Of a DNA stretch of 34,766 bases, positions 1,806-29,623 are shown piece after piece. The notes beneath the pieces are model-generated. The model did not search any database and was not told the DNA's origin. It saw only the letters and a list, made by a program, of their open reading frames with translations. Source of the DNA: an uncultured Bacteriovoracaceae bacterium (GTDB lineage Bacteria > Bdellovibrionota > UBA1018). A program made the translations under genes and the position numbers. Where the stretch lies: contig CAYJTX010000003.1 of NCBI GenBank assembly GCA_964372615.1, forward strand, positions 1-34,766, in the 5' to 3' direction. Position 1 is the first letter of the stretch. Each line of letters starts with the position of its first letter.

Positions 1806-1913
1806 ACGCTGCCGATTGGCAGGGCCCTGTCAGTCGCGCCATCATGGAATGAGGGAGACGCGGCTCGTGGACGAGGCCGTCGTCAGGAGTGGTAACCACC
1901 GTCAGGAGGACGA

Positions 1914-3320: not shown

Positions 3321-3328
3321 ACTGACCC

Positions 3329-3721: not shown

Positions 3722-3728
3722 CCGACAC

Positions 3729-16355: not shown

Positions 16356-16385
16356 AGGTAATCTCACAGCGCCGCATGCACTGGG

Positions 16386-16419
16386 AAAAACCCCCCGGGA
16401 GCTCGGCACTCCCGGGGGG
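16386..16419 (-). terminator. Intrinsic terminator of flagellin gene 1
   Basis: The minus strand reads CCCCCCGGGAG-TGCCGAG-CTCCCGGGGGG followed by TTTTT (11-bp GC stem plus U-tract), 50 nt after the flagellin stop. Confidence 0.85.
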
Positions 16420-17309: not shown

Positions 17310-17629
17310 GGTCGAACGTCCTCCCGTTAGTTCCAGACTCGCCGGGATGACGCGGTACGTCACTCCTGGGCCGAACGAGCCCGGTTTCTGCCGCCCCAGA
17401 TCGCATCGCGGACTTACGACCGCGGTGCTCGCAGGAGCGAGCCGAGTTTTGGTTGATACGTCTGTGTGGGAGAGATTCGCGTCACGGCGCGCCGGTCCCT
17501 ACAATTCCGGCGCTTCGTGAGAAGTGGATCCTGAATAGGAATCCGCCTCATGCAACAGCAAGGTACAGGTGGCAGACGTTGCCAGCCTTCGGGGAGCTGG
17601 TGTCTTCTCCCTTCGTGCTGACACCCATC

Positions 17630-17656
17630 CTATCGGCGCACCCTGTCAATACTTGA
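17630..17656 (-). promoter_or_regulatory. Candidate sigma28 (FliA) promoter for flagellin gene 1
   Basis: The minus strand reads TCAAGTAT-N11-GCCGATAG, versus the enterobacterial consensus TAAAGTTT-N11-GCCGATAA. It lies about 320 nt upstream of the flagellin ATG. Confidence 0.6.
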
Positions 17657-17669
17657 GTCAGTGACTCAA
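17653..17669. promoter_or_regulatory. Perfect 17-bp palindrome overlapping the -35 element (possible operator)
   Basis: TTGAGTCA-G-TGACTCAA, read directly from the sequence. One arm contains the TCAA of the candidate -35. Confidence 0.4.
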
Positions 17670-17802
17670 CTTTAACAATCCGCCGAAAGAGGATCTGCCA
17701 GGCCGTACCGCCGGCCAAGGCTTTCAGAATCAGAATTTCGCGCGCGCTCCGAGCGGAATCGCGCACCGTGGACGACTCGCGGTCGACACCACTTCAAACT
17801 TT

Positions 17803-17837
17803 CCCCAGGGGCGGGGAGTCGGACCCCGCCCCTGGGG
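17803..17837 (-). terminator. GC-rich terminator-like hairpin downstream of flagellin gene 2
   Basis: CCCCAGGGGCGGGG (17803-17816), 7-nt loop, CCCCGCCCCTGGGG (17824-17837), 23 nt after the stop. The trailing U-tract on the minus strand is weak (AAAGUUUG). Confidence 0.6.
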
Positions 17838-17859
17838 TGGTGTTTGAAATACGTCTAGA

Positions 17860-18693
17860 TCAACTCAGCAGCTTCAATGCCAGCAAGTTGTTCTGGTTTG
17901 CTTGACTGAGGACCGCGACACCGGCTGTCGAAAGAATGTTCGTCTTCGTCAGCTCGGCTGTTTCGGAGGCCATATCCACGTCGTAGATACGGCTTCGAGC
18001 ACTCGACAGGTTCTCATCGTAAACCTGCATGTTGCTGATGCTCGACTGCAGACGGTTCTGCAGCGCTCCGAGCTCCGCTCGGTTCTCAATGACAGTTCGA
18101 CGCGCGCCGTCGATCACCTCGAGGTTGTTCTGCGCGCTCGCCTTGTCGATGACGGAGATGTTCTCGACGCCCAGTCGCCCGGTCGTCACGTTCGTCTTCG
18201 CCACGTCGAAGTAGAAGCGGTCTCGAGTCGGGTCGTTATTGAGGCCGACCTGGAACTCAAGCGCGTCGCCTTCGCCCTGGAGCAGAAGGCGGCCGTTGTA
18301 TTCGGTCGCGGCCGCGATCCTGTCGATCTCCTGACGAAGCTGCTGCACTTCCTTGTCGATGAAGCCGCGCTCGACATCGCCGATCGTGTCGCTGGCGGCC
18401 TGAATCGACAGCTCCCGGAAGCGAACCAGAATGTTCGAGACCTCCGTCATACCGCCCTCAGCCGTCTGGATCATCGAGATGCCATCGCTGGCGTTCCGAA
18501 TATCCTGCCGGACGGAGCGGATCTGCGCCCTCATCGTCTCTGAAATCGCGAGACCCGCGGCGTCATCCGCCGCGCGGCTAATTCGCGATCCAGAGGCCAG
18601 TTTCTCGAGCGAGGACTTCTGCATCTGGTTATTGATGCCGAGGTTCCTCTGCGCTGCGAGAGACTGGACGTTGGTATTCACCCTCAGTCCCAT
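17860..18693 (-). CDS. fliC: Flagellin paralog (short, ~277 aa)
   Basis: The start is set to 'MGLRVNTNVQSLAAQRNL' (ATG at 18693 preceded by GGAGGTG). Also 'KLASGSRISRAADDAAGLAISE', 'NASDGISMIQTAEGGM', and C-terminal 'RIYDVDMASETAELTKTNILSTAGVAVLSQANQNNLLALKLLS'. Confidence 0.93.
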   Translation of the reverse strand: MGLRVNTNVQSLAAQRNLGINNQMQKSSLEKLASGSRISRAADDAAGLAISETMRAQIRSVRQDIRNASDGISMIQTAEGGMTEVSNILVRFRELSIQAASDTIGDVERGFIDKEVQQLRQEIDRIAAATEYNGRLLLQGEGDALEFQVGLNNDPTRDRFYFDVAKTNVTTGRLGVENISVIDKASAQNNLEVIDGARRTVIENRAELGALQNRLQSSISNMQVYDENLSSARSRIYDVDMASETAELTKTNILSTAGVAVLSQANQNNLLALKLLS

Positions 18694-18890
18694 ACACACC
18701 TCCACCATTCCGGCCGCGCCCGAACGGGCGAAGCCGGCGGACTCGCTCCCCGAGCGCGCGGACAAACACCTGGTCCGCGTCCCTGAAAGGACTCCAATCT
18801 GCTATTCAGTTGGCAGGAATTTGCTGTACCCCTGCCCGAAAACCCCCAACCCCGGCCCATTCCGGAGTCAAGGGATCATCGATACAGACT

Positions 18891-18917
18891 GTTTCGGTCG
18901 GATAATCCTGAACTTTA
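18891..18917 (-). promoter_or_regulatory. Candidate sigma28 promoter for flagellin gene 2
   Basis: The minus strand reads TAAAGTTC-N11-ACCGAAAC. The TAA of the -35 element is the stop codon of the upstream meaB-like gene. Confidence 0.5.
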
Positions 18918-19844: not shown

Positions 19845-19946
19845 TCGTTCGATCCAGGACTGTGTATCCTTCTTGCCCGGCAAGCCCAGCCAGCTTATCG
19901 CTTTTTGCCCATCGATCCAAGGCCGTGGACCGCCGATGAGCAGTTC

Positions 19947-21218: not shown

Positions 21219-21239
21219 CCTGTCCTGAGCAGGTGCGAG

Positions 21240-22142
21240 CTACTGCGAGACACTGACGTTGTCGCCCGAGAACACCGCCTCAACTTTCCCGTCGGAAGGG
21301 ACCGACGGACCGGCGCTCGCCGCGGGCGCGGTCGGCGGCGGTGGCTCTGCGGCGGGAAAGGTCCCGACCGGGTGCTGGGGGGCTGTGGACTCGGTCGCCG
21401 GCGCCCGCGCCGCTGGATCGGGATAGGTGGCCACCGGAGTCGGGCTCGGGGCGACCGAAGGAAGGGGCGGGGCCGGCTTCACGAGCCCGTACTTCTCGAG
21501 CACGCCGTTGGCGGTCTCGCCCCGGCCACGTTCCAGCCCGAAAGGGTTCGCCGCGGCGGTCAGCTCCGAAGTGGCGCGCGCGCCCAGCTCCACTCGCCGG
21601 TAGAACACGAACTCGCTCGCCCGGCGGTAGCGGGAGACAGCCCATCTCAGGTATCGCGAGTCGTTGTACTCGAGGAGGAAGGCTCGCGCGATCGGCGCCA
21701 CGAAAAGGTAGGTCTCAAGAACCGTTTTCTGGCGCGCGTCCAGGTAGGACGTCTCGTCGATCGCCCGCTCCATGTTGGCGAGCTGGGCGTAAAAGCACCA
21801 GTGGTACTTGACCGGCTCCGCGCGCACCAGCTCCCGAGCGCCCTGCGCATGCTCTGCCCGGCTGACCGTGAGACTTCGAAGCTTCTTGAATTCCGCGTCA
21901 CAGGTCCTGAGCTCCCCGGGCGCCGGGGCTTCAGGCTCCGTGAAGATCGCGAGCAAATCGCCGACGTCGAGGCCTTCTGGATGGGGCACCCGAACGTATC
22001 CGGGCGGCACAGGAGGAACGGGTGAGAGCGGCTCGACTTTTACAGACGAGCAGCCACCGCCTGGGCCCCAGAGGATCGCGGCGCAGATCAGCGCGACTCC
22101 CGAACGATTGCACGCAAGCCTGACGGCTGGACGAATCCCCAC
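21240..22142 (-). CDS. Hypothetical secreted protein or lipoprotein with a Pro-rich C-terminus
   Basis: I prefer the GTG at 22142 (after GAGAGGAAA), which gives 'VGIRPAVRLACNRSGVALICAAILWGPGGGCSS', a signal peptide with a weak lipobox. The track start at 22223 would overlap the neighbouring promoter region. No family motif recognised. Confidence 0.55.
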   Translation of the reverse strand: MGIRPAVRLACNRSGVALICAAILWGPGGGCSSVKVEPLSPVPPVPPGYVRVPHPEGLDVGDLLAIFTEPEAPAPGELRTCDAEFKKLRSLTVSRAEHAQGARELVRAEPVKYHWCFYAQLANMERAIDETSYLDARQKTVLETYLFVAPIARAFLLEYNDSRYLRWAVSRYRRASEFVFYRRVELGARATSELTAAANPFGLERGRGETANGVLEKYGLVKPAPPLPSVAPSPTPVATYPDPAARAPATESTAPQHPVGTFPAAEPPPPTAPAASAGPSVPSDGKVEAVFSGDNVSVSQ

Positions 22143-22222
22143 GCTTTCCTCTCGGTAAAGATCGCCCAGCGCCTGAGGTTTGACAGGGAATCCCACCGGG
22201 TCAGACGAGACACGCCCCGCCA

Positions 22223-22249
22223 TAAAGAAGCCCTGCGGCGCTCCGAAAA
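22223..22249 (+). promoter_or_regulatory. Candidate sigma28-type promoter of the MotAB/FliG-like operon
   Basis: TAAAGAAG-N11-TCCGAAAA. Compare the flagellin-2 candidate TAAAGTTC-N11-ACCGAAAC. It lies about 6 nt upstream of the SD GAGAGGAAGGAG and 24 nt upstream of the GTG at 22273. Confidence 0.45.
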
Positions 22250-22272
22250 GCCAAGAGAGGAAGGAGCCTCAG

Positions 22273-23394
22273 GTGCGTCGACACTATGTCACCGTCGGAG
22301 TTGTCGTGCTGGCAGCATCGGCGCTGAACGTGAGCGCCGCTCGGGCCGAGCCTCCACAAGCTCCCGCCGAAAGCGCGGTGACTTACGGGAGCGGAACGAA
22401 CGAGAGGAATTTCTACCAGGTGCTGGAAGACTTGCTGGGAGACTTTGAATACGACCTCAAGAACGGCCAGGTGCAGGGTCTGAAGGACCTCGCGATCCGG
22501 AACATCGCCACCAGCGAGAACATTCCTCCGTCTTTCAAGAATCACCTGGAGCTTGTCGTCACCGAGCGGATCCTCAAGAACACAAAGACCCGAGTGATCC
22601 AGTGCCTTCCCTGCAAGGCGAAGAGGACGACGGTCAACGGCGATGAGGTCATCATCACGTCGGCCGAGACCAACCCCGCCGAGCTCTCCCGAATCGCGAA
22701 GCTCGCCGGAATCGCCGACTTCATGGACATCGCCTTCGCCTACCAGCCCAACGGGATGGTGATGTCGATGACCATCGTCGAACCCGATGGCGGGGGAATC
22801 ATCTGGTCGAGAAGCTACAACTCAGAGACTTCGCGCGCCTCGGCCTTCCGCAGAGGAGTCGACTACAGCCAGACCGACGAGGCCCGTCGCGCGACCGAGT
22901 ACTACCCGACCGTCGCCCATCGCCTCGCGATTTATTACCTGTTCGAGAGGAATACGAGCGGCACCACCGGTTGCCTGGGAATCGGCTACCGCCTGGTCGA
23001 GCGCTACGACAACCGCAAGAAGGAAGTGGGATTCGAGGTAGACTACCTCAAGGACTCGTCCACGCTCGTGAACAGCTCAGCGTCGACCATCGGAAACCTC
23101 TACAGCGGCTTCAATTTGACGCTGCTGTTCTTTCACTCCTGGAACCTCATCGGCGACGAAGAGAACTTCAACCGAGTCCGCGGAAACATCTTCGCGGCGA
23201 TCGGAGGCACCTACGCCTCCGGCTTTCTCGGAGGCCTGATCCGCAGCGGCTACGAGTGGAGACTCGCGCGCCACTGGGCGGTCAGCGGCGTTCTTGGCTT
23301 CCGGCCCAAGGCGACCGCGTTCATCGGGGCGTCTTCAACCGAAGCGTCCGTATCTGGGCCAGAGTTCGGAGTGGGGATCAACTATCTCTTTTAA
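22273..23394 (+). CDS. Outer-membrane protein: N-terminal periplasmic alpha/beta module plus C-terminal beta-barrel
   Basis: GTG start after GGAAGGAG. Signal peptide 'VRRHYVTVGVVVLAASALNVSAARA'. The C-terminal half has alternating hydrophobic/aromatic beta-strand patterning and ends in '...GVGINYLF' (terminal Phe, the OMP signature). The N-terminal 'LKDLAIRNIATSENIPPSFKNHLELVVTERILKNTKTRVIQC' resembles the CsgG/LpoB/FlgO-like module pattern (low confidence). Confidence 0.7.
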   Translation: MRRHYVTVGVVVLAASALNVSAARAEPPQAPAESAVTYGSGTNERNFYQVLEDLLGDFEYDLKNGQVQGLKDLAIRNIATSENIPPSFKNHLELVVTERILKNTKTRVIQCLPCKAKRTTVNGDEVIITSAETNPAELSRIAKLAGIADFMDIAFAYQPNGMVMSMTIVEPDGGGIIWSRSYNSETSRASAFRRGVDYSQTDEARRATEYYPTVAHRLAIYYLFERNTSGTTGCLGIGYRLVERYDNRKKEVGFEVDYLKDSSTLVNSSASTIGNLYSGFNLTLLFFHSWNLIGDEENFNRVRGNIFAAIGGTYASGFLGGLIRSGYEWRLARHWAVSGVLGFRPKATAFIGASSTEASVSGPEFGVGINYLF

Positions 23395-23398
23395 ACAT

Positions 23399-24172
23399 AT
23401 GGAATGGCGCCAAGATCACAGGTGGCAGTCGATCGCGGGAATCCTGGGGATGATCCTCGTCTCCGCTCCCGGCTGCGCGACCGTGAAGGGCGTCTTCGGA
23501 CTCGATCACCCGCCCGTGGCTCCGCCTCCCATTTCCAACCCTTTCGGGCATTATTCTCCGAGCCGCGCCGGCGGGCAGGACACCATCGTCCTGCGCACCA
23601 AGAAGGGCGACCGGGCCGTCGAGGTCGAGCTCCCCGGCCAGAACGGCGCGATGACTGACTTCGTCCTCCCGCTCTCGCCCGCCTTTCGCGACCCATCCCG
23701 GGACCCCGCCTCCGCTGTCGGAGAGATCGACGAGCGGTACCGCGGAAAGCGCCCGGGGATGACCGATCGGGAGATCACGCGCACGATTCCCCATAATCTT
23801 CCCGAGGATGAGGGAAATCGCCGCGAAGTCGAGACTGCTCTCGGACTTGTTCCATCCGAGGACGACCGGCCCGAGAACGAAGCGAGCTACCTCGGAGAGC
23901 TCGATCACGTGAAGCAGCTCTACCGCGCCGCTCGCTACGAGGCCGCCCTCATGGAAATGGACGAGCTGATCCGCGCCTACCCCACGGATCCGAAGCTCCA
24001 CCAGATGCGGGGAACGCTCCTCGACCGACTCGGCCGGACCGATCTCGCCCTGAAGTCCTGGAACCAGGCTCTGCGCTTCGAACCTGCGAACATCTCCCTG
24101 AGACGGTTCGTGGAGCGCAAACAGGCCCAAAGGTCGATCGCTTCTCAACCCGGGTCGGGAGGGGCTCCCTGA
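23399..24172 (+). CDS. Lipoprotein with C-terminal TPR repeats
   Basis: ATG at 23399, 4 nt after the previous stop. 'IAGILGMILVSAPGCATV' is a lipobox. The C-terminal 'YLGELDHVKQLYRAARYEAALMEMDELIRAYPTDPKLHQMRGTLLDRLGRTDLALKSWNQALRFEP' forms about 2 TPRs. The TGA overlaps the next ATG (TGATG). Confidence 0.72.
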   Translation: MEWRQDHRWQSIAGILGMILVSAPGCATVKGVFGLDHPPVAPPPISNPFGHYSPSRAGGQDTIVLRTKKGDRAVEVELPGQNGAMTDFVLPLSPAFRDPSRDPASAVGEIDERYRGKRPGMTDREITRTIPHNLPEDEGNRREVETALGLVPSEDDRPENEASYLGELDHVKQLYRAARYEAALMEMDELIRAYPTDPKLHQMRGTLLDRLGRTDLALKSWNQALRFEPANISLRRFVERKQAQRSIASQPGSGGAP

Positions 24173-26394
24173 TGCTGCTCCTCCTGATAGCGCTCCTGAC
24201 GCCTCTGGCGAACGCCGCCACTCACGCGACCGCCGTGCAGCACGCGCAGCGGACCGCCGAACAGCAGATCCGCAATCTCGTGGAGCCGGTGCTCGAGAAG
24301 TACTGCCATGACGAGTGCCGCCTCATGGGTATCACCGCCACCATCGACGTGGCGACGCCCGAGGAGGTTGCCCCGGGCTTCGACGACATCGACCCGAGCG
24401 GGGCTTCCAGGCTCGCGCCGTCGTCGGCTCGAATCCGCCTCCTCATCGACGAGAAGGTCGGTCCCGTCTCCCGCGGAAAAATCCTGGATCTGGTCCAGCA
24501 GTACCTCGAGACACTCGAGTACGGGGTGAAGATCGACCTCCAGGCGACGCGCTTTCCGCAGCCCGTCGGTTCCGCCGGGAAGATCGCGGAGATGCGCGAG
24601 AGGATCAGCAAACAGTTCCGGAGCACGCTCGAGGATCTCTTTCGTCAGTTCTGCCCGGAGCAGTGCCTCCTCGCCGACTACGAGCTCCAGACCGAGCTCG
24701 TCAACGCGGAGGAGGCCCAGTACGGCCATTCCGGGGAATTCATCGAAGATGGCGGCGTCGCCATCCGGATTCGTAACATCGCGGGAACGATCCTGGTCGA
24801 TGATTCCCTGCCCTTCGACGAGCGCACGAACGTCCTCGAGATGGCGAAGTTCAAGACGAACGCGTTCAGAAACGTGAGTCTCGCGAGCAAGTCGCTGAAG
24901 TTCCCGAAGCCGACAGCGGGCCTTCGTCGACTCGCCTCGCTCGGTGCCGACTCGAGGACCTCCAGCCAGAGCTCGGACAACATCGCGAAGCAGGAGAGCT
25001 TCCACCGGATCGAAAAGATCGAGCGCGTGGAAAGCGGCGACGCTGTGCAGGCCGAGCTCCAGAAGTTCAAGGTCTACGGCCTCATCTTCGCGTGCTCCGT
25101 CATCTCCCTCCTGATCTTTCTTGCGATGTCGGGCCTTTCGGGCCGGTCCGGCGGCGGCTCATCGGTCCAACGAATGCTCCAGCAGATGGTCTCCGACCCG
25201 GTTTCGACGACCGCGCCCCTCAGCCACGTGCCCGGAGGGGGGATAGGCGGCGGAACGAGCTCCGACGAGCGCGCGGCGCTCGTGATCAAGCGCTATGAGA
25301 TCGAGCGGCTGAAAGAGGATCTCCAGGCCGTCTTCGCCCAGCAGCCGAAGGTAGCCAAGCACGTCTTTACCCGGGTGCTCACGGAGGAAGGCGTCGAGAT
25401 CACGTCCCAGTACATCCACATCCTCGGCGAAAGCGTCGTGATCGACATGATCCGCGACCCCAGCCTCCAGGCCGACGTTCAGGAACTCATGGAGTTCTAC
25501 GCAAAGAACCCGACTGACCTGACCGACGACGACCAGCTCGAGCTGCTCCGCAAGCTCCACAACCGCACGATCGCCGGGAAGATGGCGGTGATGGGGAGCC
25601 GCTCCTCCGGGCAATTCGACTTCCTGGCGGAGATGGACGGCCAGCAGATTCTCGAGCTGATCCGAAACGAGTCCCTGACCGTGAAGTCCATCGTGCTGAC
25701 CCAGACGGACTCCCAGAAACGGTCCGCGATCTACACCCAGCTCGATGACGATTCGCGCGCGAAGCTCCTGGGTGAGCTCTCCCGGATCGATTACCTGCCG
25801 AGAGACTACATCTTCAACGTGGCGAGCTCGCTTAAGCGGAAGCGCCTCGAGAACCCGAAGCTCAACACCGAGGCGCTGCCGGGCTCGGACGTCCTGCTGA
25901 CCCTCCTGGAACGGACGGGCTGCGAGATGCAGCAGCAGGTGATTCGGAATCTGGATGCCACGAACCCCGAGGCGGGCCGCCACGTGAAGGCCAAGCTCGT
26001 GAGTGTCGACACGCTTCGCTACCTGCGCGACGGCCAGCTGCTCGAGGTTGTCCTCAGCCTGCGTCACGACGAGCTGCTTCAGTTCCTGAAGGGCGCCCCC
26101 GAGGGTATCCGGATGGCCGTGTTCTCCAAATCACCCAAAGATCTAGTGATCGAGCTCGAGGAGGAAATGGCGCAACTTCAAGTCCTCAGCCGGGAGACGT
26201 ACCAGAACATAGAGAGGAAGGTCCTGAATCGCATGAAGGTCATGGCGAACGAGGGTCTCATCAATCTCATTGAGACGAACGAACGCATGTTCGCCGACAC
26301 GACGAACGCCGCTCCCGCGTTCGTCGAAGGCGGCCCCCCCGACGCCAAAGCCAGGACCGGCAAGACGCCGCTCAGGAAGGTCGCAGGATGGTAG
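24172..26394 (+). CDS. Membrane-anchored chimera: signal/TM, two periplasmic FliF/YscJ-like repeats (each with C-x3-C), one TM helix, and a complete FliG-like cytoplasmic region
   Basis: - Signal-like 'MLLLLIALLTPLANA'.
- Repeat 1 (about aa 27-131) has 'YCHDECRL...ARIRLLIDEKVGPVSRGKILDLVQQYL...RFPQP'.
- Repeat 2 (about aa 137-247) has 'FCPEQCLL...IRIRNIAGTILVDD...KFPKP'.
- TM helix 'VYGLIFACSVISLLIFLAMSGL' (about aa 301-322).
- FliG_M-like 'ILELIRNESLTVKSIVLTQTDSQKRSAIYTQLDDDSRAKLLGELSRIDYLP'.
- FliG_C-like 'LRYLRDGQLLEVVLSLRHDELLQFLKGAPEGIRMAVFSKSPKDLVIELEEEMAQLQVLSRETYQNIERKVLNRMKVMANEGLI'.
- The antisense ORFs 24145..25005 and 25159..26067 are shadows. Confidence 0.8.
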   Translation: MLLLLIALLTPLANAATHATAVQHAQRTAEQQIRNLVEPVLEKYCHDECRLMGITATIDVATPEEVAPGFDDIDPSGASRLAPSSARIRLLIDEKVGPVSRGKILDLVQQYLETLEYGVKIDLQATRFPQPVGSAGKIAEMRERISKQFRSTLEDLFRQFCPEQCLLADYELQTELVNAEEAQYGHSGEFIEDGGVAIRIRNIAGTILVDDSLPFDERTNVLEMAKFKTNAFRNVSLASKSLKFPKPTAGLRRLASLGADSRTSSQSSDNIAKQESFHRIEKIERVESGDAVQAELQKFKVYGLIFACSVISLLIFLAMSGLSGRSGGGSSVQRMLQQMVSDPVSTTAPLSHVPGGGIGGGTSSDERAALVIKRYEIERLKEDLQAVFAQQPKVAKHVFTRVLTEEGVEITSQYIHILGESVVIDMIRDPSLQADVQELMEFYAKNPTDLTDDDQLELLRKLHNRTIAGKMAVMGSRSSGQFDFLAEMDGQQILELIRNESLTVKSIVLTQTDSQKRSAIYTQLDDDSRAKLLGELSRIDYLPRDYIFNVASSLKRKRLENPKLNTEALPGSDVLLTLLERTGCEMQQQVIRNLDATNPEAGRHVKAKLVSVDTLRYLRDGQLLEVVLSLRHDELLQFLKGAPEGIRMAVFSKSPKDLVIELEEEMAQLQVLSRETYQNIERKVLNRMKVMANEGLINLIETNERMFADTTNAAPAFVEGGPPDAKARTGKTPLRKVAGW

Positions 26395-26894
26395 ACTCAG
26401 ACTTCAGACCGAGCGTTCCGGCCCTCGCGGGAGTCAGGCTCCTGAAAGTCTTCTCGGAGCCCGAGCTTGTGCAGCTCTTGTCGCTCGGCAAACCGGTCAT
26501 CGTGGAACAGCACGCGAACGTCGTCATCGAGGGAGAACTGACCTGGGGCCTCTACCTGCTCATCGAGGGCACGGTCGGAATCTACAAGATGAACCGGATG
26601 AGCGGGAACACCTACGAGGTCGGCCACCTGCGATCCGGACAGTATTTCGGCGAGATGTCGCTCATCGATGAGCAGCCGCGCTCGGCCACCGTGCGTGCGC
26701 TGGTGGACTGCCAGCTCTTTTTCATCTCGAAGGACGCCTTCCATCAGTTCATCGGTCAGGCGAATGACCTCAAGGCGCGCTTCTACGAAAGCTGCATCCA
26801 GGATCTCGTGGGCCGCCTGCGCGAGCTGGACGAAAATTACGTGGTCAGCCAGTACCAGCTCTGGCGGAGCGCCGTGAAGAAGGAGGCGGCCTGA
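26388..26894 (+). CDS. Stand-alone cyclic-nucleotide-binding (CAP effector-domain) protein
   Basis: 168 aa. 'VIVEQHANVVIEGELTWGLYLLIEGTVGIY' and the phosphate-binding cassette 'YFGEMSLIDEQPRSATVRALVDCQLFFISKDAF', which retains the Gly-Glu and Arg-Ser/Thr-Ala residues. Its start overlaps the previous gene by 7 nt, and motA starts 1 nt after its stop. Confidence 0.85.
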   Translation: MVDSDFRPSVPALAGVRLLKVFSEPELVQLLSLGKPVIVEQHANVVIEGELTWGLYLLIEGTVGIYKMNRMSGNTYEVGHLRSGQYFGEMSLIDEQPRSATVRALVDCQLFFISKDAFHQFIGQANDLKARFYESCIQDLVGRLRELDENYVVSQYQLWRSAVKKEAA

Positions 26895-26895
26895 G

Positions 26896-27681
26896 ATGAA
26901 TTTCTCGTCGTTTTTCGGCGTGATCTTCGGGATCGGCGTCATGGTCGCGGCCTTGCGCGAGGCCCAGCCAGGGAACCTCTCCTACTTCCTCGACAGGCAC
27001 GCCATCCTGATCGTCATCGGCGGGACGGCGGCGGCCGCGAGCATCAGCTTCCCGCTCTCCAAGGTGATCTCGCTGACGAAGGTTTTCGTCATGCGGGTGC
27101 TCGGCCGGCACCGGGTGGATTACCACGAGGTCATTTCCCAGTTGCTCGAACTCAACAAGAAGGCCGGCATCGGCATCACCGCTCTGGCCGACATGCTCCC
27201 GCACATTCGCCACGATTTCCTCCGCGAGGCCATGGCTCTCGTCTCCTCTGGCGTGCTCAATGAAAAGGAGATCCGCGCGACGCTCGAGCAGCGGCTCAAG
27301 ACCGTCCAGGATCGCTACATGCACGAGGCCAATATGTTTCGCACGATCGGGCGGTACCCTCCCGCGTTCGGGCTTCTGGGGACGACCCTCGGCATGATCG
27401 CCGTGCTCCAGAAGATCGGTCAGCCCGAAAGCCAGAAGCTGATCGGTCCGGCGATGTCGATCGGCCTGATCGCCACGCTCTATGGCATCGGCTTCACGAA
27501 CCTCATCTTCCTGCCGATCGCCGAGAACCTCACCGAACGCACGATCGAGGAGGTCGCGCTGCGGCGCCTGATCGTCGAGGGCGCCGTGATGATCAAGGCG
27601 CAGGTGAATCCGATCGCCATGCGCGAGAGCCTGAACTCCTTCCTCCTGCCGAAGGATCGGGTCGTTCGAAAGGCTGCTTGA
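26896..27681 (+). CDS. motA: Flagellar stator protein MotA/PomA family
   Basis: 261 aa. Two N-terminal TM helices, a cytoplasmic loop, then 'YPPAFGLLGTTLGMIAVL...GPAMSIGLIATLYGIGFTNLIFLPIAENL', the conserved TM3/TM4 MotA_ExbB core with Pro residues. Confidence 0.9.
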   Translation: MNFSSFFGVIFGIGVMVAALREAQPGNLSYFLDRHAILIVIGGTAAAASISFPLSKVISLTKVFVMRVLGRHRVDYHEVISQLLELNKKAGIGITALADMLPHIRHDFLREAMALVSSGVLNEKEIRATLEQRLKTVQDRYMHEANMFRTIGRYPPAFGLLGTTLGMIAVLQKIGQPESQKLIGPAMSIGLIATLYGIGFTNLIFLPIAENLTERTIEEVALRRLIVEGAVMIKAQVNPIAMRESLNSFLLPKDRVVRKAA

Positions 27682-28475
27682 TGCCGCTCAAGCGACTCTT
27701 TCAGCTCGTCCAGACCACCGATGACACGAAAACCAAGCCGAAGGACGACAAGCCACCGGAGCCTCTGATTCACGACGAGTCGAACTGGCTGATCTCCTAC
27801 GCCGACATGATGACGCTCCTTTGCGGGTTCTTCATCATGATGTTCAGCATGTCCAAGCTCGACGAACCGGAGTTCGAGAAAGTGAAGGCGGCAGTCGCGC
27901 GCCACTTCGGCGGAGATTACAAATCACCCAATGCCGATCTCGCGAAGTTCGTCACGCAGGTCATCCAGGACGCGGGTCTCGGAAAGGACGTTCTGATCCG
28001 GACTGATTCTTTCGGAGTCTCGATGACCTTTCAGTCGATCGTCTTCTTCGACACCCTGAGCGCCGATCTCAGGATCGACGGCGTTCGACTCATCGAAAAA
28101 TTGGTCGCCGCCGTGCTGGAGCGCGAGGGAATCGAGCTGAAAAAATACAAGGTGGTCGTTGAAGGCCATACAGACAGTCGTCCTGTCGTATCCGGAGTGT
28201 ACTCATCCAACTGGGAGCTGAGCGGCGCGCGCGCCGCGCGAGTGGCCCGGATCTTCCTCCAGCAGGGGTTCGACGCGACTCATGTCATCCCGATCGGCTA
28301 CGGCGACACGCACCCGGAGGTGGCGGATCGTTCGCCCGCAGGCAGTCTTGACGCTGACGCCCTGTCTAAGAACCGCCGCGTCGTTATCCGCGTCCTCGAA
28401 CCAAAAGTCGTCGCCATTCCCATACCGGAGGTTCCCGCTCCGGAAGCTCCTCCTCCGGCAATTCCTGCCCATTGA
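27681..28475 (+). CDS. motB: Flagellar stator protein MotB (OmpA-like peptidoglycan-binding C-terminus)
   Basis: 'NWLISYADMMTLLCGFFIMMF' carries the invariant channel Asp. The C-terminal 'VVVEGHTDSRPV....SNWELSGARAARVARIF...GYGDTHP...NRRVVIRV' is the OmpA-like motif. The ATG at 27681 overlaps the motA TGA. An in-frame TTG at 27678 is the track start. Confidence 0.9.
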   Translation: MPLKRLFQLVQTTDDTKTKPKDDKPPEPLIHDESNWLISYADMMTLLCGFFIMMFSMSKLDEPEFEKVKAAVARHFGGDYKSPNADLAKFVTQVIQDAGLGKDVLIRTDSFGVSMTFQSIVFFDTLSADLRIDGVRLIEKLVAAVLEREGIELKKYKVVVEGHTDSRPVVSGVYSSNWELSGARAARVARIFLQQGFDATHVIPIGYGDTHPEVADRSPAGSLDADALSKNRRVVIRVLEPKVVAIPIPEVPAPEAPPPAIPAH

Positions 28476-28534
28476 CGACCCCAGAAGCCAACCTTGATCC
28501 TTAAGGGAAGGACCGAAGGGTCCGGAGGGTAACC

Positions 28535-29500
28535 ATGCGCTGGAACTGTCCCCATTGCGGTGTCGCACTCGCCGTCACGGACGAAAAGCTCGGCCACGGG
28601 TGGTCCTTCTCCCGATGTTACAAGTGCGGCGGGTTCGCGCTGATTCGACGCTCAGACATCAACCTGATCAAGGTGGATCGAGCGCCAACCGGTGAACGCG
28701 TTCTCCTGCCGGAGGCCACGGAATTCCCTATGATCGCGAAAGCCGCCGCGGACAGGCTTTTGAAGCCCGTCGTTCGCCCCGCGAACGGTCGGCGGGCCGA
28801 GCCTCAGGCGGCCGCGCCGCCTCCCATCGGAGCCAAAGGCACAGGAAATTTCGTCGCGACTCCAATGGCTACATCCGCAATGGCGGCTCTGGAGTCCGTC
28901 GAGCCGAAGGCGAGCGTATCAGTCGCGCAGGCCCACCCCCGCGCGACGGCCGCTCCCAGGCCATCCGCCAAGGTACCCTACGGTCTGCCGGAGGCCCTGC
29001 CCAACTCCCCGACCCGGAGCTGGAAAGAGCGCATGCTGCCGGTTGCGATCGCGGCGACCGGCATCCTGGCGATCGCCTCAGGGTTCTACCTCTATCTGCA
29101 AGGACGCCAGGTCTGGCGAGCCGCCAGCCAGGCCGCCGAAACAGCCTCGGCTCCCCAGGCCCCCGCCGATGAGACGATTCTCGCCCGCAGCCCAGCCGAA
29201 GAGGCGAAGCCGGTCGTGATCGATCGCATCAACCAGCAGGCGATGGCCCCCGTACCCGGCGATCCAAACGGCGAGGGTGAGGAAGGCGGGTCTCTCACGA
29301 TCCGGATTCGCGCCGCCAAGGCGTTTTTGCGGGGAGGTCCCGGAACCGAGTACCCCATCGTCGGAGTAGGCAACCCGGAGATCCTCTATACCGTTCGAGA
29401 CTTTAAAGACCGTTGGTTTAAAATCCTGGTCCCCTCAGGGAGCCAGCCCGTGGCCTGGATACGGAACGATCTGGTGGAAGTTCAGGCCTCGACGCCTTAG
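28535..29500 (+). CDS. Zinc-ribbon / single-TM / C-terminal SH3-like domain protein
   Basis: 'MRWNCPHCGVALAVTDEKLGHGWSFSRCYKCGGF' (CxxC...CxxC ribbon), TM helix 'MLPVAIAATGILAIASGFYLYL', Ala/Pro-rich linkers, and C-terminal 'LTIRIRAAKAFLRGGPGTEYPIVGVGNPEILYTVRDFKDRWFKILVPSGSQPVAWIRNDLV' (bacterial SH3 pattern). Confidence 0.7.
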   Translation: MRWNCPHCGVALAVTDEKLGHGWSFSRCYKCGGFALIRRSDINLIKVDRAPTGERVLLPEATEFPMIAKAAADRLLKPVVRPANGRRAEPQAAAPPPIGAKGTGNFVATPMATSAMAALESVEPKASVSVAQAHPRATAAPRPSAKVPYGLPEALPNSPTRSWKERMLPVAIAATGILAIASGFYLYLQGRQVWRAASQAAETASAPQAPADETILARSPAEEAKPVVIDRINQQAMAPVPGDPNGEGEEGGSLTIRIRAAKAFLRGGPGTEYPIVGVGNPEILYTVRDFKDRWFKILVPSGSQPVAWIRNDLVEVQASTP

Positions 29501-29576
29501 CGGGGCACATCTGGCTCGCCCTCGCTTCTCGCCGTATCACGCATTGAGAGACCATGACTCACCGCATGATCTTCAA

Positions 29577-29606
29577 TTGACACAAAGCGCCTTTCTCCAG
29601 TATCCG
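29577..29606 (+). promoter_or_regulatory. Weak sigma70-like promoter candidate
   Basis: TTGACA (29577-29582), an 18-nt spacer, and TATCCG (29601-29606), upstream of the GTG at 29624. The -10 element is poor. Confidence 0.25.
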
Positions 29607-29623
29607 CACCCTCGGCAAGGGGT

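What the first reader, a model, noticed from the sequence alone, without database searches (positions are those of the whole stretch)
22223..29500. Tightly coupled operon joining a MotA/MotB stator to a membrane-anchored FliF-like/FliG-like chimera, a cNMP sensor and dedicated envelope proteins
Seen in the sequence: seven co-oriented ORFs with junctions of a 4-nt gap, 1-nt overlap (TGATG), 7-nt overlap, 1-nt gap, 1-nt overlap and a 59-nt gap.
- The ORFs, in order, are an OM beta-barrel protein, a TPR lipoprotein and a 740-aa protein with FliF/YscJ-like periplasmic repeats, one TM helix and a FliG-like cytoplasmic region.
- These are followed by a 168-aa cNMP-binding protein, MotA, MotB and a Zn-ribbon/TM/SH3 protein.
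- A sigma28-like motif (TAAAGAAG-N11-TCCGAAAA) precedes the operon.

Established knowledge: canonical motAB operons do not carry a rotor-type protein. Canonical fliF and fliG are separate genes followed by fliH/I/J, and none of those, nor fliM/N or export-gate genes, are present here.

Inference: the operon encodes one protein for every envelope layer around a proton-motive stator and its cognate torque-helix partner. I see three possible readings:
- (a) A lineage-specific stator scaffold or extra ring, analogous in role to PflA/PflB, FlgP/FlgO or MotX/Y.
- (b) A second, minimal MotAB-driven rotary or trans-envelope machine distinct from the flagellum.
- (c) A fused, shortened MS-ring/C-ring component of this organism's flagellum.

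I do not recognise this gene set as a described system.
Basis: partly seen in the sequence, partly recalled or inferred. Interest (0 to 1): 0.85.

Follow-up and report, generated by a model that had tools for sequence, protein, structure and literature searches.

The report
Stator operon with its own FliG-like rotor
An uncultured class of predator-like bacteria (Bdellovibrionota, class UBA1018) keeps a tightly packed operon pairing a flagellar-type MotAB proton motor with its own membrane-anchored FliG-like partner, outer-membrane proteins and a cyclic-nucleotide sensor; this looks like a second rotor-stator device beside the normal flagellum, and I found no description of it.

Summary

**What the proteins are**
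- The 740-aa protein has significant FliG_M and FliG_C domains.
- Its cytoplasmic part aligns with a whole canonical FliG at 19% identity.
- An AlphaFold model shows two periplasmic alpha-beta-beta-alpha-beta domains whose best non-FliG structural matches are FliF rings. No FliF/YscJ sequence match exists.
- Gene A is a predicted 8-stranded outer-membrane barrel with a TolB-N/LpoB/FlgT-like periplasmic domain.

**Conservation**
- The order up1(-) | A B C [D] MotA MotB [G] recurs in about 60 of 62 evaluable species genomes. All that could be placed belong to class UBA1018.
- Remote relatives (17-25% identity) keep the same architecture. One subfamily keeps A, B, MotA, MotB and C in a shuffled order.
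- A FliA-type promoter motif precedes the operon in 51 of 62 loci and flagellin genes in 44 of 47.

**Interpretation**
- A class member, FG-1, also has canonical fliF, fliG, fliM and fliN and up to ten MotA hits. The "fused replacement MS/C ring" reading therefore fails.
- Best reading: a dedicated stator plus its own ring-forming FliG-type partner, gated by cNMP.
- Whether it is an autonomous machine or an accessory ring of the flagellar motor is unresolved.
- No description was found in the literature.

The parts
21240..22142 (-). up1: a conserved, divergently transcribed lipoprotein gene with no Pfam family. The ORF extends to ATG 22223, but the real start is probably the internal GTG that gives VGIRPAVRLAC...GPGGGC|SS.
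   Evidence: The lipobox GC(S/T) is conserved in 55 homologues. The gene lies divergently next to A in 48 of 58 loci. No Pfam or NCBIfam hit.
22223..22248 (+). FliA (sigma28)-type promoter motif TAAAG-N15-TCCGAAA, upstream of gene A.
   Evidence: T[ACT]AAG-N14-16-CCGA[AT]N is present upstream of A in 51 of 62 loci, against a background of 0.0105 per 220 nt. The same motif lies upstream of 44 of 47 flagellin ORFs. It matches the B. bacteriovorus FliA consensus TTAAG-N16-CCGATA (PMC3627812).
22273..23394 (+). A: an outer-membrane protein. It has a signal peptide, a periplasmic alpha/beta domain (TolB-N / LpoB-C / FlgT-like), an 8-stranded OmpA/OmpX-like barrel, and a C-terminal ...LF.
   Evidence: AF2 model mb956861b0e78, pLDDT 81. 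Foldseek: TolB 7.6e-7, LpoB 4q6l TMt 0.65, OmpA 9fzc 6.7e-5, NspA, OmpX, and FlgT 3w1e 7.5e-4. 346 homologues, all unnamed. Present in 57 of 61 loci.
23399..24172 (+). B: a lipoprotein (lipobox ...APGC|A) with C-terminal TPR repeats.
   Evidence: TPR_14 at 8.1e-5, 23.4 bits against a gathering threshold of 23.5, and other TPR models below their thresholds. The GC lipobox is conserved. Present in 58 of 61 loci.
24172..26394 (+). C: 740 aa. In order: an N-terminal signal/anchor (res 1-19); two RBM-like alpha-beta-beta-alpha-beta periplasmic domains (res ~25-126 and 134-242), each with a CxxxC; a disordered linker; the invariant IEKIERVExGDA motif (res 281-291); a TM helix (res 298-325); a disordered linker; a FliG N/M/C-like all-helical region (res 364-713); and a tail ending ...KVAGW.
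   Evidence: Pfam FliG_M and FliG_C. PDB FliG hits. AF2 pLDDT 80.7. Foldseek: FliG 3hjl 2e-7 and FliF rings 7e-4. 19% identity to the whole FG-1 FliG. Hydropathy. Alignments A1 and A2.
26128..26169 (+). The segment of C (res 653-666, KSPKDLVIELEEEM) that aligns with the FliG torque helix.
   Evidence: K656 aligns with R281 (E. coli numbering) in the MAFFT alignment, or one residue before it in the HMM alignment. The acidic run E663-E665 aligns with D288/D289. These residues are conserved in the main UBA1018 clade, less so in family CAIMNF01, and not in the type II and III relatives.
26388..26894 (+). D: 168 aa. A single cyclic-nucleotide-binding domain with an intact phosphate-binding cassette (FGEMSLID..PRSATVRA) and a C-terminal helix. 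No output domain.
   Evidence: cNMP_binding 2e-19. PKA-R type CNB domains at 4e-20. The cassette is conserved in 61 homologues. Present in 50 of 62 loci, and absent from family CAIMNF01. A homologue (E 1e-39) also sits beside the type III relatives of C.
26896..27681 (+). E: MotA-type stator A subunit, of the flagellar type (PomA/MotP/MotA1-like).
   Evidence: NCBIfam MotP, MotA and PomA at 1e-39 to 4e-43, but below the equivalog cut-offs. PDB MotA1, C. sporogenes MotA and PomA at 1e-31 to 2e-29. The cytoplasmic loop LELNKKA..AL.(D/E) is conserved. Present in 61 of 62 loci.
27681..28475 (+). F: MotB-type stator B subunit, with a TM helix carrying the invariant Asp (SYADMMTLL), a plug, and an OmpA-like peptidoglycan-binding domain.
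   Evidence: MotB_plug 4.5e-16 and OmpA 2.5e-12. PDB MotB 1.5e-22. Conservation. Present in 61 of 62 loci.
28535..29500 (+). G: a bitopic protein with an N-terminal CPHCG...CYKCGG zinc ribbon (cytoplasmic), one TM helix (res 166-188), and a C-terminal SH3-like domain (periplasmic). It is an accessory, less conserved member.
   Evidence: TIGR02098 4.3e-4 and SH3_3 3e-4, both below their cut-offs. The motifs are conserved in 39 homologues. It follows MotB directly in 39 of 56 loci.
16470..18917 (-). Context: two flagellin genes (16470-17363 and 17860-18765), each with the same FliA-type motif upstream (17656 and 18917).
   Evidence: Flagellin_N/C 7e-42 and 9e-40. Motifs. A flagellin gene lies within 10 kb upstream of the module in 23 of 43 loci.

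Best explanation
**What is shown**
- The region is a conserved gene module of class UBA1018 Bdellovibrionota.
- It encodes a flagellar-type MotA/MotB stator together with its own FliG-type partner, C.
- C is not the cell's FliG. It is a deep paralogue fused, through a transmembrane helix, to two periplasmic domains of ring-building-motif fold.
- The module also encodes an outer-membrane barrel (A), two lipoproteins (B and up1), a small cyclic-nucleotide-binding protein (D) and a bitopic zinc-ribbon/SH3 protein (G).
- It sits behind a FliA-type promoter, the same type as the flagellin genes.

**What is inferred**
- C assembles into an inner-membrane ring, through its RBM-like domains outside and FliG-like ARM stacking inside.
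- MotB anchors the stator to peptidoglycan. Proton flow turns MotA, which pushes on the charged helix of C that corresponds to the FliG torque helix.
- The ring therefore turns, or is strained, relative to the wall. Its periplasmic face passes that work to the outer-membrane set A, B and up1.
- D couples activity to cAMP or cGMP, taking the place of the CheY/FliM switch, which C cannot bind.

**My commitment**
I take this to be a self-contained second rotor-stator device made during the free-swimming stage. I do not take it to be a subunit of the canonical MS or C ring. Its output is unknown.
For: **Conservation**
- The gene order is conserved: A in 57 of 61 evaluable loci, B in 58 of 61, MotA and MotB in 61 of 62, D in 50 of 62.
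- These loci cover 28 of the 38 UBA1018 genomes listed in part 1 of a published tree file, matched by hand on isolate or species name.
- Junctions overlap or lie 1-4 nt apart, which points to translational coupling.
- Remote relatives of C share only 17-25% identity in the periplasmic part. All ten tested still carry FliG_M and/or FliG_C.
- In one remote subfamily the set is A-like, B-like, MotA, MotB, C', with C' moved behind MotB. The genes were shuffled but kept together.

**Protein C**
- FliG_M and FliG_C are significant. The structural alignment spans a full-length FliG.
- A charged helix aligns with the torque helix and is conserved in this clade.
- The periplasmic domains have the alpha-beta-beta-alpha-beta fold, and their best non-FliG matches are FliF rings.

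**The stator**
- It has the plug, the channel Asp and the OmpA domain. Its closest solved relatives are flagellar stators.

**Not the canonical rotor**
- FG-1 has canonical FliF, FliG (with EHPQ), FliM and FliN, plus up to 10 MotA and 5 MotB KO hits.
- C lacks EHPQ and RBM3.

**The cNMP protein**
- D-type proteins also accompany relatives of C that have no adjacent motAB. This suggests D acts on C.

**Operon logic**
- All envelope layers are encoded in one operon, as in other self-contained machines.
- FG-1 carries two paralogous copies of the module's first half.
Against: - No direct evidence exists for ring formation, for C-MotA contact, or for rotation. No multimer model could be run.
- The conserved FliA-type promoter and the flagellin genes nearby in about half the loci fit a flagellar accessory equally well.
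- The torque-helix charges are not conserved in the type II and III relatives, which carry a conserved Trp instead. The MotA loop carries KK...D/E rather than the canonical R...E. The interface is therefore modified, and its function is assumed.
- The RBM fold also occurs in proteins that do not form rings, and the FliF similarity is marginal.
- Cytoplasmic stator-binding accessories do exist in flagellar motors, for example FlgX in C. jejuni (PMC11725899, listed).
- No output structure is identifiable.
Confidence: 0.45

Rival explanations
1. The module is an accessory ring or scaffold of the polar, thick (probably sheathed) flagellar motor. C, A, B and up1 would build lineage-specific rings around the canonical basal body and recruit or stabilise this particular stator set. 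The role would resemble that of PflA/PflB, FlgP/Q, MotX/MotY, FlgT/O/P, FlgV or FlgX. The FliG-like domain would dock the cytoplasmic face of MotA, or form a second torque-receiving ring.
For: - A FliA-type promoter is shared with the flagellin genes: 51 of 62 loci, and 44 of 47 flagellin ORFs.
- Flagellin genes lie within 10 kb in 23 of 43 loci.
- The stator is of the flagellar type.
- Cells of the class have a single flagellum 53 nm thick (PMC13200544).
- A's periplasmic domain weakly resembles the Vibrio H-ring protein FlgT (E 7.5e-4).
- TPR proteins are recurrent stator scaffolds.
- Cytoplasmic stator-binding accessories have a precedent in FlgX (PMC11725899).
Against: - To my knowledge, known periplasmic scaffolds such as MotX/Y and PflA/B hold stators through the periplasmic part of MotB. 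None uses a complete FliG-like N/M/C module.
- In B. bacteriovorus, FliA controls most attack-phase genes, including non-flagellar ones (PMC3627812).
- The type II operons and type III relatives show no such motif and no flagellar neighbours.
- FG-1 has two paralogous copies of the module and many other MotAB pairs.
- A static FliG-like ring gripping MotA would oppose MotA rotation.
Confidence: 0.32
2. The module is a non-rotary regulatory device. C would be a membrane-anchored FliG decoy or sensor that sequesters or parks this stator set and releases it to the flagellar motor when D binds cNMP. Alternatively, it would report stator load into cNMP signalling.
For: - D has a sensor domain only and is translationally coupled to C through a 7-nt overlap.
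- D-like genes accompany relatives of C that have no adjacent motAB.
- Stators are known to exchange dynamically (established knowledge).
- FG-1 has an adenylate cyclase.
Against: - This reading does not explain the dedicated outer-membrane barrel, the two lipoproteins or the two conserved periplasmic domains of C.
- D is missing from a whole family, CAIMNF01, that keeps everything else.
- The type II operons have no D.
Confidence: 0.1
3. One reading: C is the organism's own fused, shortened MS-ring/C-ring protein and replaces FliF and FliG in the flagellum.
For: - Engineered FliF-FliG fusions assemble rings (PMC6079021; PDB 8z4d).
- The topology of C mimics FliF (periplasmic RBMs, then a TM helix) followed by FliG.
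Against: - FG-1 has canonical fliF and fliG, with EHPQ and the torque helix ISKRAADLLREDL, and also fliM and fliN.
- C has only two RBM-like domains and lacks RBM3 and the beta-collar, which in FliF form the S-ring and collar around the rod (established knowledge).
- EHPQ is replaced by ESLT.
- No export-gate genes are nearby.
Confidence: 0.02
4. The module is a Zorya-like or other MotAB-based anti-phage defence system, or a Tol/Ton-type energiser.
For: - MotB matches ZorB models at the domain level (2.4e-15).
- D's CNB domain matches Pycsar effector sensor domains (7e-10).
- A's periplasmic domain resembles the TolB N-domain.
- The TPR protein and the OmpA-like domain recall CpoB and Pal.
Against: - There is no ZorA hit, and no ZorC, ZorD or ZorE.
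- MotA matches the TolQ and ExbB models only at 2e-5 and 5e-3, against 4e-43 for the flagellar MotP/MotA models.
- The module is chromosomal, nearly universal within a class and syntenic. That is unlike a mobile defence island.
Confidence: 0.03

Closest known systems
The flagellar rotor-stator pair: FliF (MS ring), FliG (top of the C ring) and MotA5B2
   Same: - FliG_M and FliG_C domains, and a full-length FliG-like fold.
- A charged helix at the position of the torque helix.
- Periplasmic RBM-fold domains followed by a TM helix, as in FliF.
- A MotA/MotB of the flagellar type, with plug, channel Asp and OmpA domain.
- A FliA-type promoter.
   Different: - One polypeptide in place of FliF plus FliG.
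- Only two RBM-like domains, with no RBM3 or beta-collar.
- No sequence similarity to FliF.
- The FliM-binding EHPQ motif is lost.
- No fliM, fliN, fliH, fliI, fliJ or export gate.
- It has its own outer-membrane barrel and lipoproteins.
- It coexists with a complete canonical flagellar set, in FG-1.
- 19% identity to the class's own FliG.
SctJ/PrgK/YscJ (injectisome inner-membrane ring lipoprotein) and engineered FliF-FliG fusions
   Same: - A signal sequence, two RBM domains and a C-terminal TM helix. This is the SctJ layout, from established knowledge.
- The laboratory FliF-FliG fusions show that a fused ring protein can assemble (PMC6079021; PDB 8z4d).
   Different: - No PF01514 match.
- Foldseek hits to PrgH, YscD and needle-complex chains are weak, at E 0.06-0.12.
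- SctJ has no FliG-like cytoplasmic domain and works with a type III export apparatus, which is absent here.
- The known FliF-FliG fusions are man-made.
Lineage-specific flagellar motor accessories: PflA/PflB and FlgP/FlgQ (Campylobacterota), MotX/MotY and FlgT/FlgO/FlgP (Vibrio), FlgV and FlgX
   Same: - Extra envelope proteins encoded away from the core flagellar genes, including TPR or SLR proteins, lipoproteins and outer-membrane proteins.
- They serve stator recruitment in polar, high-torque or sheathed flagella.
- A's periplasmic domain has a weak FlgT-like fold.
   Different: - No sequence homology to any of them.
- None contains a FliG-like module.
- None is encoded together with motAB, a rotor-type protein and a cNMP sensor in one operon.
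Second-messenger brakes and clutches of the flagellar motor (the PilZ proteins YcgR, MotI/DgrA and FlgZ) and the polar cAMP-binding protein CbpA of Pseudomonas aeruginosa
   Same: A small sensor-only protein encoded with, or acting on, stator and rotor parts. D could play that role.
   Different: - D is a cyclic-nucleotide (cAMP/cGMP-type) binding domain, not a PilZ domain.
- Its target is untested.
- It is dispensable in one family of the class.
Other 5:2 motor machines: Tol-Pal, ExbBD-TonB, AglRQS-Glt and GldLM-T9SS
   Same: An inner-membrane ion-driven motor encoded with an inner-membrane transducer, a TPR protein, an OmpA-like peptidoglycan binder and outer-membrane partners. Work is passed across the periplasm.
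   Different: - Here the stator is of the flagellar clade.
- The proposed coupling is cytoplasmic, between FliG and MotA, rather than through a TM helix inserted in the stator or a periplasmic arm of the B subunit.

Membership tests
FliG (flagellar rotor/switch protein; TIGR00207, K02410) | FliG middle and C-terminal armadillo domains | tested here: met
   - PF14841 at 3.9e-8 (33.9 bits, cut-off 25) and PF01706 at 2.4e-10 (41.1 bits, cut-off 23.3).
- The family profile against PDB FliG chains gives 2e-10.
- Foldseek to 3hjl gives 2e-7.
FliG (flagellar rotor/switch protein; TIGR00207, K02410) | Scores as an equivalog of FliG | tested here: not met
   - TIGR00207 gives 46.5 bits against a cut-off of 226.7.
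- Identity to the canonical FliG of a class member is 19%.
FliG (flagellar rotor/switch protein; TIGR00207, K02410) | The EHPQR motif that binds FliM | tested here: not met
   EHPQ is replaced by an invariant E-S-x-T (ESLT). Only the flanking E and the later R are kept.
FliG (flagellar rotor/switch protein; TIGR00207, K02410) | Charged torque helix (E. coli R281, D288, D289) | tested here: inconclusive
   - The aligned helix KSPKDLVIELEEEM keeps a basic residue (K656) and an acidic run (E663-665) in the main clade.
- The register differs between the two alignments.
- The charges are lost in the type II and III relatives.
FliG (flagellar rotor/switch protein; TIGR00207, K02410) | A soluble protein of about 330 aa that docks on the FliF C-terminus and is encoded in a fliF-fliG-fliH context | tested here: not met
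   - C is 740 aa with a signal/anchor and a TM helix.
- It is encoded between a TPR lipoprotein gene and a cNMP/motAB block.
FliF / SctJ (YscJ_FliF, PF01514) ring proteins | Sequence match to PF01514 or to solved FliF, PrgK or EscJ chains | tested here: not met
   - No Pfam hit at E <= 0.1.
- No PDB sequence hit.
- hhalign against FG-1 FliF gives E 0.083, probability 0.7%.
FliF / SctJ (YscJ_FliF, PF01514) ring proteins | Periplasmic ring-building motifs (alpha-beta-beta-alpha-beta) followed by a TM helix | tested here: met
   - The AF2 model has two alpha-beta-beta-alpha-beta units with pLDDT mostly above 85.
- Foldseek to FliF rings: 7bk0_B at 7e-4, 6scn_A at 3.6e-3 and 8t8p at 1.4e-2.
- This is fold-level evidence from a prediction only.
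FliF / SctJ (YscJ_FliF, PF01514) ring proteins | RBM3, the beta-collar and housing of a type III export gate | tested here: not met
   - The periplasmic part is only about 220 structured residues, in two domains.
- No export-gate genes lie in the window or in the related loci examined.
FliF / SctJ (YscJ_FliF, PF01514) ring proteins | Assembly into a homo-oligomeric ring | not testable with these tools
   No multimer prediction or experiment was available.
Flagellar stator MotA/MotB (PomAB/MotPS type) | The MotA_ExbB fold with a large cytoplasmic loop, and closest relatives that are flagellar stators | tested here: met
   - PF01618 at 2.5e-21.
- MotP, MotA and PomA models at 4e-43 to 8e-39, against TolQ at 2e-5.
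- PDB MotA1 and PomA at 1e-31 to 2e-29.
Flagellar stator MotA/MotB (PomAB/MotPS type) | In MotB: the plug, the channel Asp in the TM helix, and the OmpA-like domain | tested here: met
   - PF13677 at 4.5e-16 and PF00691 at 2.5e-12.
- SYADMMTLL is invariant in 65 homologues.
Flagellar stator MotA/MotB (PomAB/MotPS type) | An equivalog score, and the canonical R90/E98 charge pair in MotA | tested here: not met
   - Best NCBIfam scores are 133-148 bits against cut-offs of 340-394.
- The loop carries a conserved KK and a D/E displaced from the canonical positions.
Flagellar stator MotA/MotB (PomAB/MotPS type) | Drives rotation of the flagellum | not testable with these tools
   FG-1 has up to 10 MotA and 5 MotB KO hits. 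Which of them power the flagellum is unknown.
Zorya anti-phage system | ZorA with a long cytoplasmic tail, plus ZorC/D or ZorE | tested here: not met
   PADLOC gives no ZorA, ZorC, ZorD or ZorE hit. Only MotB matches ZorB, at the domain level.
Known stator scaffolds (PflA/B, MotX/Y, FlgT/O/P) | Homology of A, B, up1 or G to any of these proteins | tested here: inconclusive
   - No Pfam or NCBIfam match beyond generic TPR.
- A's periplasmic domain gives a weak Foldseek hit to FlgT 3w1e (7.5e-4, TM about 0.2), behind TolB and LpoB.

The most novel reading that the evidence does not exclude
The module is an autonomous, minimal MotAB/FliG-type rotary motor, separate from the flagellum. It would consist of a single-polypeptide rotor ring (RBM ring, TM helix and FliG), its own stator, a cNMP gate in place of the CheY/FliM switch, and a dedicated outer-membrane partner set. 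It would use flagellar torque generation for a non-flagellar, trans-envelope task in predator-like Bdellovibrionota, and would have diversified into at least three subfamilies across uncultured lineages.
Probability: 0.35. Interest if true: 0.95.

Novelty: new variant of a known kind. Interest (0 to 1): 0.78.

Why it matters
**What makes it unusual**
- As far as I know, FliG has been described only as a part of the flagellum.
- As far as I know, flagellar-clade MotAB has been described only as acting on the flagellar C ring.
- Here a natural protein joins an MS-ring-like periplasmic part to a complete FliG-like module. It is encoded with its own stator, is conserved across a whole class, and coexists with the canonical flagellar set.

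**If it proves autonomous**
- It would show that the rotor-stator couple has been reused as a free-standing machine.
- It would be a much simpler rotary motor than the flagellum: about five core proteins, no switch complex and no export apparatus.
- That would be useful for work on torque generation, on motor evolution (a possible picture of a pre-flagellar or stripped-down rotor) and on synthetic biology.

**If it proves a flagellar accessory**
- It would be the first motor with a second, membrane-anchored FliG-type ring and cNMP control.
- That bears on how very thick, fast polar flagella of predatory bacteria are driven.

**Annotation**
- Either way, hundreds of database entries are now labelled "flagellar motor switch protein FliG" or "hypothetical", and these labels need correcting.

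Tried and rejected
- **Sequence-level FliF/YscJ homology of C.** Tested with Pfam, PDB phmmer and a family profile, and hhalign against a FliF of the same class. All were negative or insignificant. Only the predicted fold supports the similarity.
- **C as the cell's own FliG or a fused FliF-FliG.** Rejected, because FG-1 has the canonical genes.
- **Zorya or other defence system.** Rejected with PADLOC.
- **Tol/Ton membership.** MotA matches the TolQ and ExbB models only weakly.
- **A characterised or cultured member.**
  - Name look-ups covered 30 remote representatives.
  - One GTDB scan was run.
  - Six literature searches were run.
  - Only MAG labels turned up, and no paper describes the module. 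B. bacteriovorus and other cultured BALOs did not appear, but absence was not proven, because the scans are pattern-based or list only the best hits.
- **Strict sigma28 pattern TAAA-N16-CCGAWA.** It was found in only 6 of 64 loci. Relaxing it to the Bdellovibrio-type T[ACT]AAG gave 51 of 62.
- **Sigma28 motif upstream of type II and III relatives.** None was found.
- **RNA genes, tRNAs and terminators.** No Rfam family and no tRNA in the window. Intrinsic-terminator-like sites in 21000-30900 were not above chance.
- **Charge covariation between C and MotA across subfamilies.** Both partners change between type I and type II, but not in a simple compensatory way. This was not conclusive.
- **Same-genome stator counts for the window's own organism.** I could not find a way to link canonical flagellar genes to that organism. 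Only FG-1 could be checked, through a paper's supplement.

Full report
**1. The observation**

The window is 61-69% G+C. It holds no tRNA and no Rfam family.

The seven co-oriented ORFs are present as described.
- A/B: a 4-nt gap.
- B/C: TGATG.
- C/D: a 7-nt overlap, ATGGTAG.
- D/E: a 1-nt gap.
- E/F: TGATG.
- F/G: a 59-nt gap.

Terminator-like sites in the scanned region (21000-30900) are not above the shuffle expectation.

Profile searches gave the following:
- C: FliG_M at 3.9e-8 and FliG_C at 2.4e-10.
- D: cNMP_binding at 2e-19.
- E: MotA_ExbB at 2.5e-21, with MotP/MotA/PomA-type models at 1e-39 to 4e-43.
- F: MotB_plug and OmpA.
- B: TPR models at or below the Pfam thresholds.
- G: a weak zinc ribbon and a weak SH3.
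- A and the divergent upstream ORF: nothing.

**2. Anatomy of the 740-aa protein C**

A 72-sequence alignment gave an AlphaFold model with mean pLDDT 80.7. Together with hydropathy, the layout is:
- A hydrophobic N-terminus, residues 1-19.
- Two alpha-beta-beta-alpha-beta domains, residues about 25-126 and 134-242. Each has a conserved CxxxC at the turn between helix 1 and strand 1.
- A disordered linker.
- The invariant motif IEKIERVExGDA, residues 281-291.
- A transmembrane helix, residues 298-325.
- A second disordered linker.
- An all-helical region, residues 364-713.
- A disordered tail ending in the conserved ...KVAGW.

Foldseek against the PDB returns full-length FliG first (3hjl at 2e-7, and Salmonella C-ring FliG chains). 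Next come FliF MS-ring chains (7bk0_B at 7e-4, 6scn_A at 3.6e-3, 8t8p at 1.4e-2). PrgH, YscD and needle-complex chains follow weakly.

At the sequence level only FliG is detectable. There is no PF01514 hit. The family profile finds only FliG chains in the PDB. hhalign against the FliF of a class member gives E 0.083. "FliF/YscJ-like" is therefore a statement about a predicted fold, not demonstrated homology.

Residues 407-697 of C align with residues 11-325 of the canonical FliG of FG-1 at 19% identity. The N, M and C parts of FliG are thus all represented, and the paralogue is old.

Two functional motifs differ from canonical FliG:
- The FliM-binding EHPQ is replaced by an invariant E-S-x-T.
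- The helix that aligns with the torque helix reads KSPKDLVIELEEEM. It has a basic residue at or next to the R281 position and an acidic run at D288/D289.

**3. The other products**

*MotA.* Its closest solved relatives are flagellar stators: Paenibacillus MotA1, Clostridium MotA and Vibrio PomA, at 1e-31 to 2e-29. Its cytoplasmic loop carries a conserved KK and a D/E, slightly displaced from the canonical R90/E98 positions.

*MotB.* It has the plug, the invariant channel Asp (SYADMMTLL) and an OmpA-like domain.

*D.* It is a single cyclic-nucleotide-binding domain of the PKA-R type. The phosphate-binding cassette is intact, a C-terminal helix follows, and there is no output domain.

*A.* It was modelled from 50 homologues at pLDDT 81. 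It has a signal peptide, a periplasmic alpha/beta domain and eight C-terminal strands ending in ...LF. The periplasmic domain resembles the TolB N-domain, the LpoB C-domain (TMt 0.65) and, weakly, the Vibrio H-ring protein FlgT. The strands match OmpA, OmpX and NspA.

*B and up1.* Both have conserved lipoboxes. B ends in TPR repeats.

*G.* It has a conserved CPHCG...CYKCGG zinc ribbon, one TM helix and an SH3-like C-terminus.

Together these give one outer-membrane barrel, two lipoproteins, a bitopic inner-membrane FliG-like protein, a stator anchored to peptidoglycan, a bitopic accessory protein and a soluble sensor.

**4. Comparative genomics**

*Homologues.* C has more than 215 homologues at 53-69% identity. 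All come from metagenomes or MAGs, and all are labelled "hypothetical", "FliG C-terminal domain-containing" or, wrongly, "flagellar motor switch protein FliG".

*Species scan.* A scan of one genome per GTDB species returned 79 loci. Among those with enough flanking DNA:

| Gene | Position | Loci |
|---|---|---|
| A | upstream of C | 57 of 61 |
| B | upstream of C | 58 of 61 |
| MotA, MotB | downstream of C | 61 of 62 |
| D | between C and MotA | 50 of 62 |
| up1 | divergent, beside A | 48 of 58 |
| G | directly after MotB | 39 of 56 |

*Taxonomy.*
- I matched isolate names by hand against the tree file of PMC13200544. This places 28 of the 38 class-UBA1018 leaves in part 1 of that file among my loci.
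- The D-less loci correspond to family CAIMNF01 plus genus JAIXQO01.
- None of the five basal leaves (f__UBA6935, f__UBA923, o__CAIPTA01) matched. The scan is pattern-based and capped, so absence there is not proven.
- That paper proposes the name Bdellonasia for the class. It describes FG-1 cells as small vibrios with a single polar flagellum 53 nm thick and a bottlenose-shaped opposite pole.

*Remote relatives.*
- An exhaustive phmmer search used only the periplasmic 329 residues of C against 1.84 billion cluster representatives. It found 106 hits. The remote ones (17-25% identity) are again 720-990 aa.
- All ten I scanned carry FliG_C, and nine of them also FliG_M.
- In one subfamily (type II) the operon reads A-like (HMM E 3.6e-53), B-like (1.6e-19), MotA, MotB, C', with overlapping junctions. 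The same five genes occur in a different order.
- In another (type III), C'' lies beside a DsbA gene, a D-like cNMP gene (1e-39) and pilMNO(P)Q, with no motAB within 10 kb.
- One relative stands alone.
- Shuffled but persistent linkage is the strongest available evidence that A, B, C and MotAB work together. The recurrent D-C pairing suggests that D acts on C.

**5. Regulation and relation to the flagellum**

- It occurs upstream of A in 51 of 62 loci, against a background of 0.0105 per 220 nt.
- It occurs upstream of 44 of 47 flagellin ORFs in the same loci.
- In the window, three of its four occurrences precede the operon and the two flagellin genes at 16470-17363 and 17860-18765.
- It matches the experimentally mapped B. 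bacteriovorus FliA consensus TTAAG-N16-CCGATA. There, however, FliA drives two thirds of all attack-phase promoters, including many non-flagellar genes (PMC3627812).

The operon is therefore co-expressed with the swimming stage. That alone does not make it flagellar.

Flagellin genes lie within 10 kb in 23 of 43 loci. The type II and III loci show no such motif.

The KO table and proteome of FG-1 are in the supplement of PMC13200544. FG-1 carries two partial copies of the module (L051 and L053). The supplement shows a complete flgBC-fliEFGHIJ...fliLMNOPQR-flhBAF-fliA cluster, with one FliF and a canonical FliG (EHPQ; torque helix ISKRAADLLREDL). It also shows four K02410 hits, ten MotA hits and five MotB hits, and an adenylate cyclase. 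The table was truncated when stored, so the counts may be incomplete or include some FG-2 rows. C therefore does not replace FliF or FliG, and this MotAB is one of several stator pairs.

**6. Mechanism**

*Shown:* the conserved module, the domain architectures, the topology, the promoter type, and coexistence with a canonical flagellar set.

*Inferred:*
- C forms an inner-membrane ring, by analogy with RBM rings and FliG ARM stacking.
- MotAB is anchored to peptidoglycan and driven by proton flow through the conserved Asp. It acts on the charged helix of C.
- The resulting rotation or strain is transmitted by the periplasmic domains and the invariant juxtamembrane acidic motif to A, B and up1.
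- D gates the device in response to cAMP or cGMP.

I judge an autonomous second rotor-stator device somewhat more likely (0.45) than an accessory ring of the flagellar motor (0.32). My reasons are:
- A complete FliG-like module is what a stator pushes, not what known scaffolds use to hold stators.
- The whole envelope-spanning set is encoded in one operon.
- The module is duplicated in FG-1.
- The remote subfamilies have no flagellar neighbours and no FliA motif.

Against this stand several points:
- The FliA motif and the flagellin linkage.
- The flagellar-type stator.
- The very thick flagellum of these cells.
- Precedents for accessory rings and cytoplasmic stator binders (FlgV, FlgX).
- The absence of any identifiable output.

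A decoy or sensor role (0.10) leaves the outer-membrane parts unexplained. Zorya or Tol/Ton membership is excluded by PADLOC and profile scores.

**7. Novelty and verdict**

Six literature searches and three rounds of name look-ups found no description and no cultured member. The most recent phylogenetic survey of MotAB and its relatives does not describe it (PMC12505986).

All parts are relatives of known flagellar or envelope proteins. I therefore class it conservatively as a new variant of a known kind. There is roughly a one-in-three chance that it is a free-standing FliG/MotAB rotary machine, which would be categorically new.

Its interpretation is largely supported: reading (c) is refuted, and (a) versus (b) remains unresolved. 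Interest is 0.78.

Noticed in passing
window 26377-26394 (C), 26880-26894 (D), 27664-27681 (MotA): Three cytoplasm-facing products of the operon end in similar, conserved basic-Ala tails: C ...KKVAGW, D ...KKEAA and MotA ...RKAA. These could be a shared docking motif or a ClpX-type degradation tag. They remain unexplained.
   Followed up: partly
L051 and L053 (both Bdellovibrionota bacterium FG-1): FG-1 carries two paralogous copies of up1-A-B-C. A is 65% and 53% identical to the window's, and C 58% and 56%. Both copies are cut by contig ends inside C, so the downstream halves were not seen.
   Followed up: partly
window 16470-17363(-), 17860-18765(-), with motifs at 17656(-) and 18917(-): Two tandem flagellin genes, each preceded by the same FliA-type motif as the operon. 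The block NAD kinase - RecN - (LpxH) - flagellin - flagellin - MeaB - M48 is syntenic with FG-1 and L001.
   Followed up: yes
window 24304-24318 and 24652-24666 (C45/C49 and C161/C165 of C); the CLPC motif in A at about 22603-22614: Conserved CxxxC pairs sit at the same structural position in both RBM-like domains of C, and A has a CxxC. These are probably periplasmic disulfides. A DsbA gene lies directly upstream of the type III relatives (L081, L085).
   Followed up: partly
L081 14535-20877 and L085 14573-17151: The type III relatives of C lie a few kb from type IV pilus genes pilMNO(P)Q and have a D-like cNMP gene on the opposite strand. This may hint at a link to the non-flagellar pole. 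It is effectively one observation, because the two loci are related.
   Followed up: no
window 18915-20939(-) and 19134-21218(+): Two ORFs of more than 670 aa overlap antisense, an artefact of the high G+C content. Only the C-terminal MeaB GTPase part of the first (res 374-633) and the M48 peptidase part of the second (res 476-664) have family support.
   Followed up: partly
window 1889-3325(+), 3236-5269(-), 14259-16409(-), 29624-30829(+): Large ORFs with no Pfam hit. The 401-aa ORF directly downstream of G is not conserved next to the module in other loci: no locus other than the window matched.
   Followed up: partly
window 27656-27681(-): A fourth match to the FliA-type motif lies on the minus strand across the motA/motB junction. 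It is probably chance. No conserved antisense ORF was examined.
   Followed up: no
FG-1 KO table (supplement of PMC13200544), genes 02662-02696: Four MotA-type genes lie within about 35 genes, and about ten occur in the genome. That is an unusually large stator repertoire for a cell with a single flagellum.
   Followed up: no
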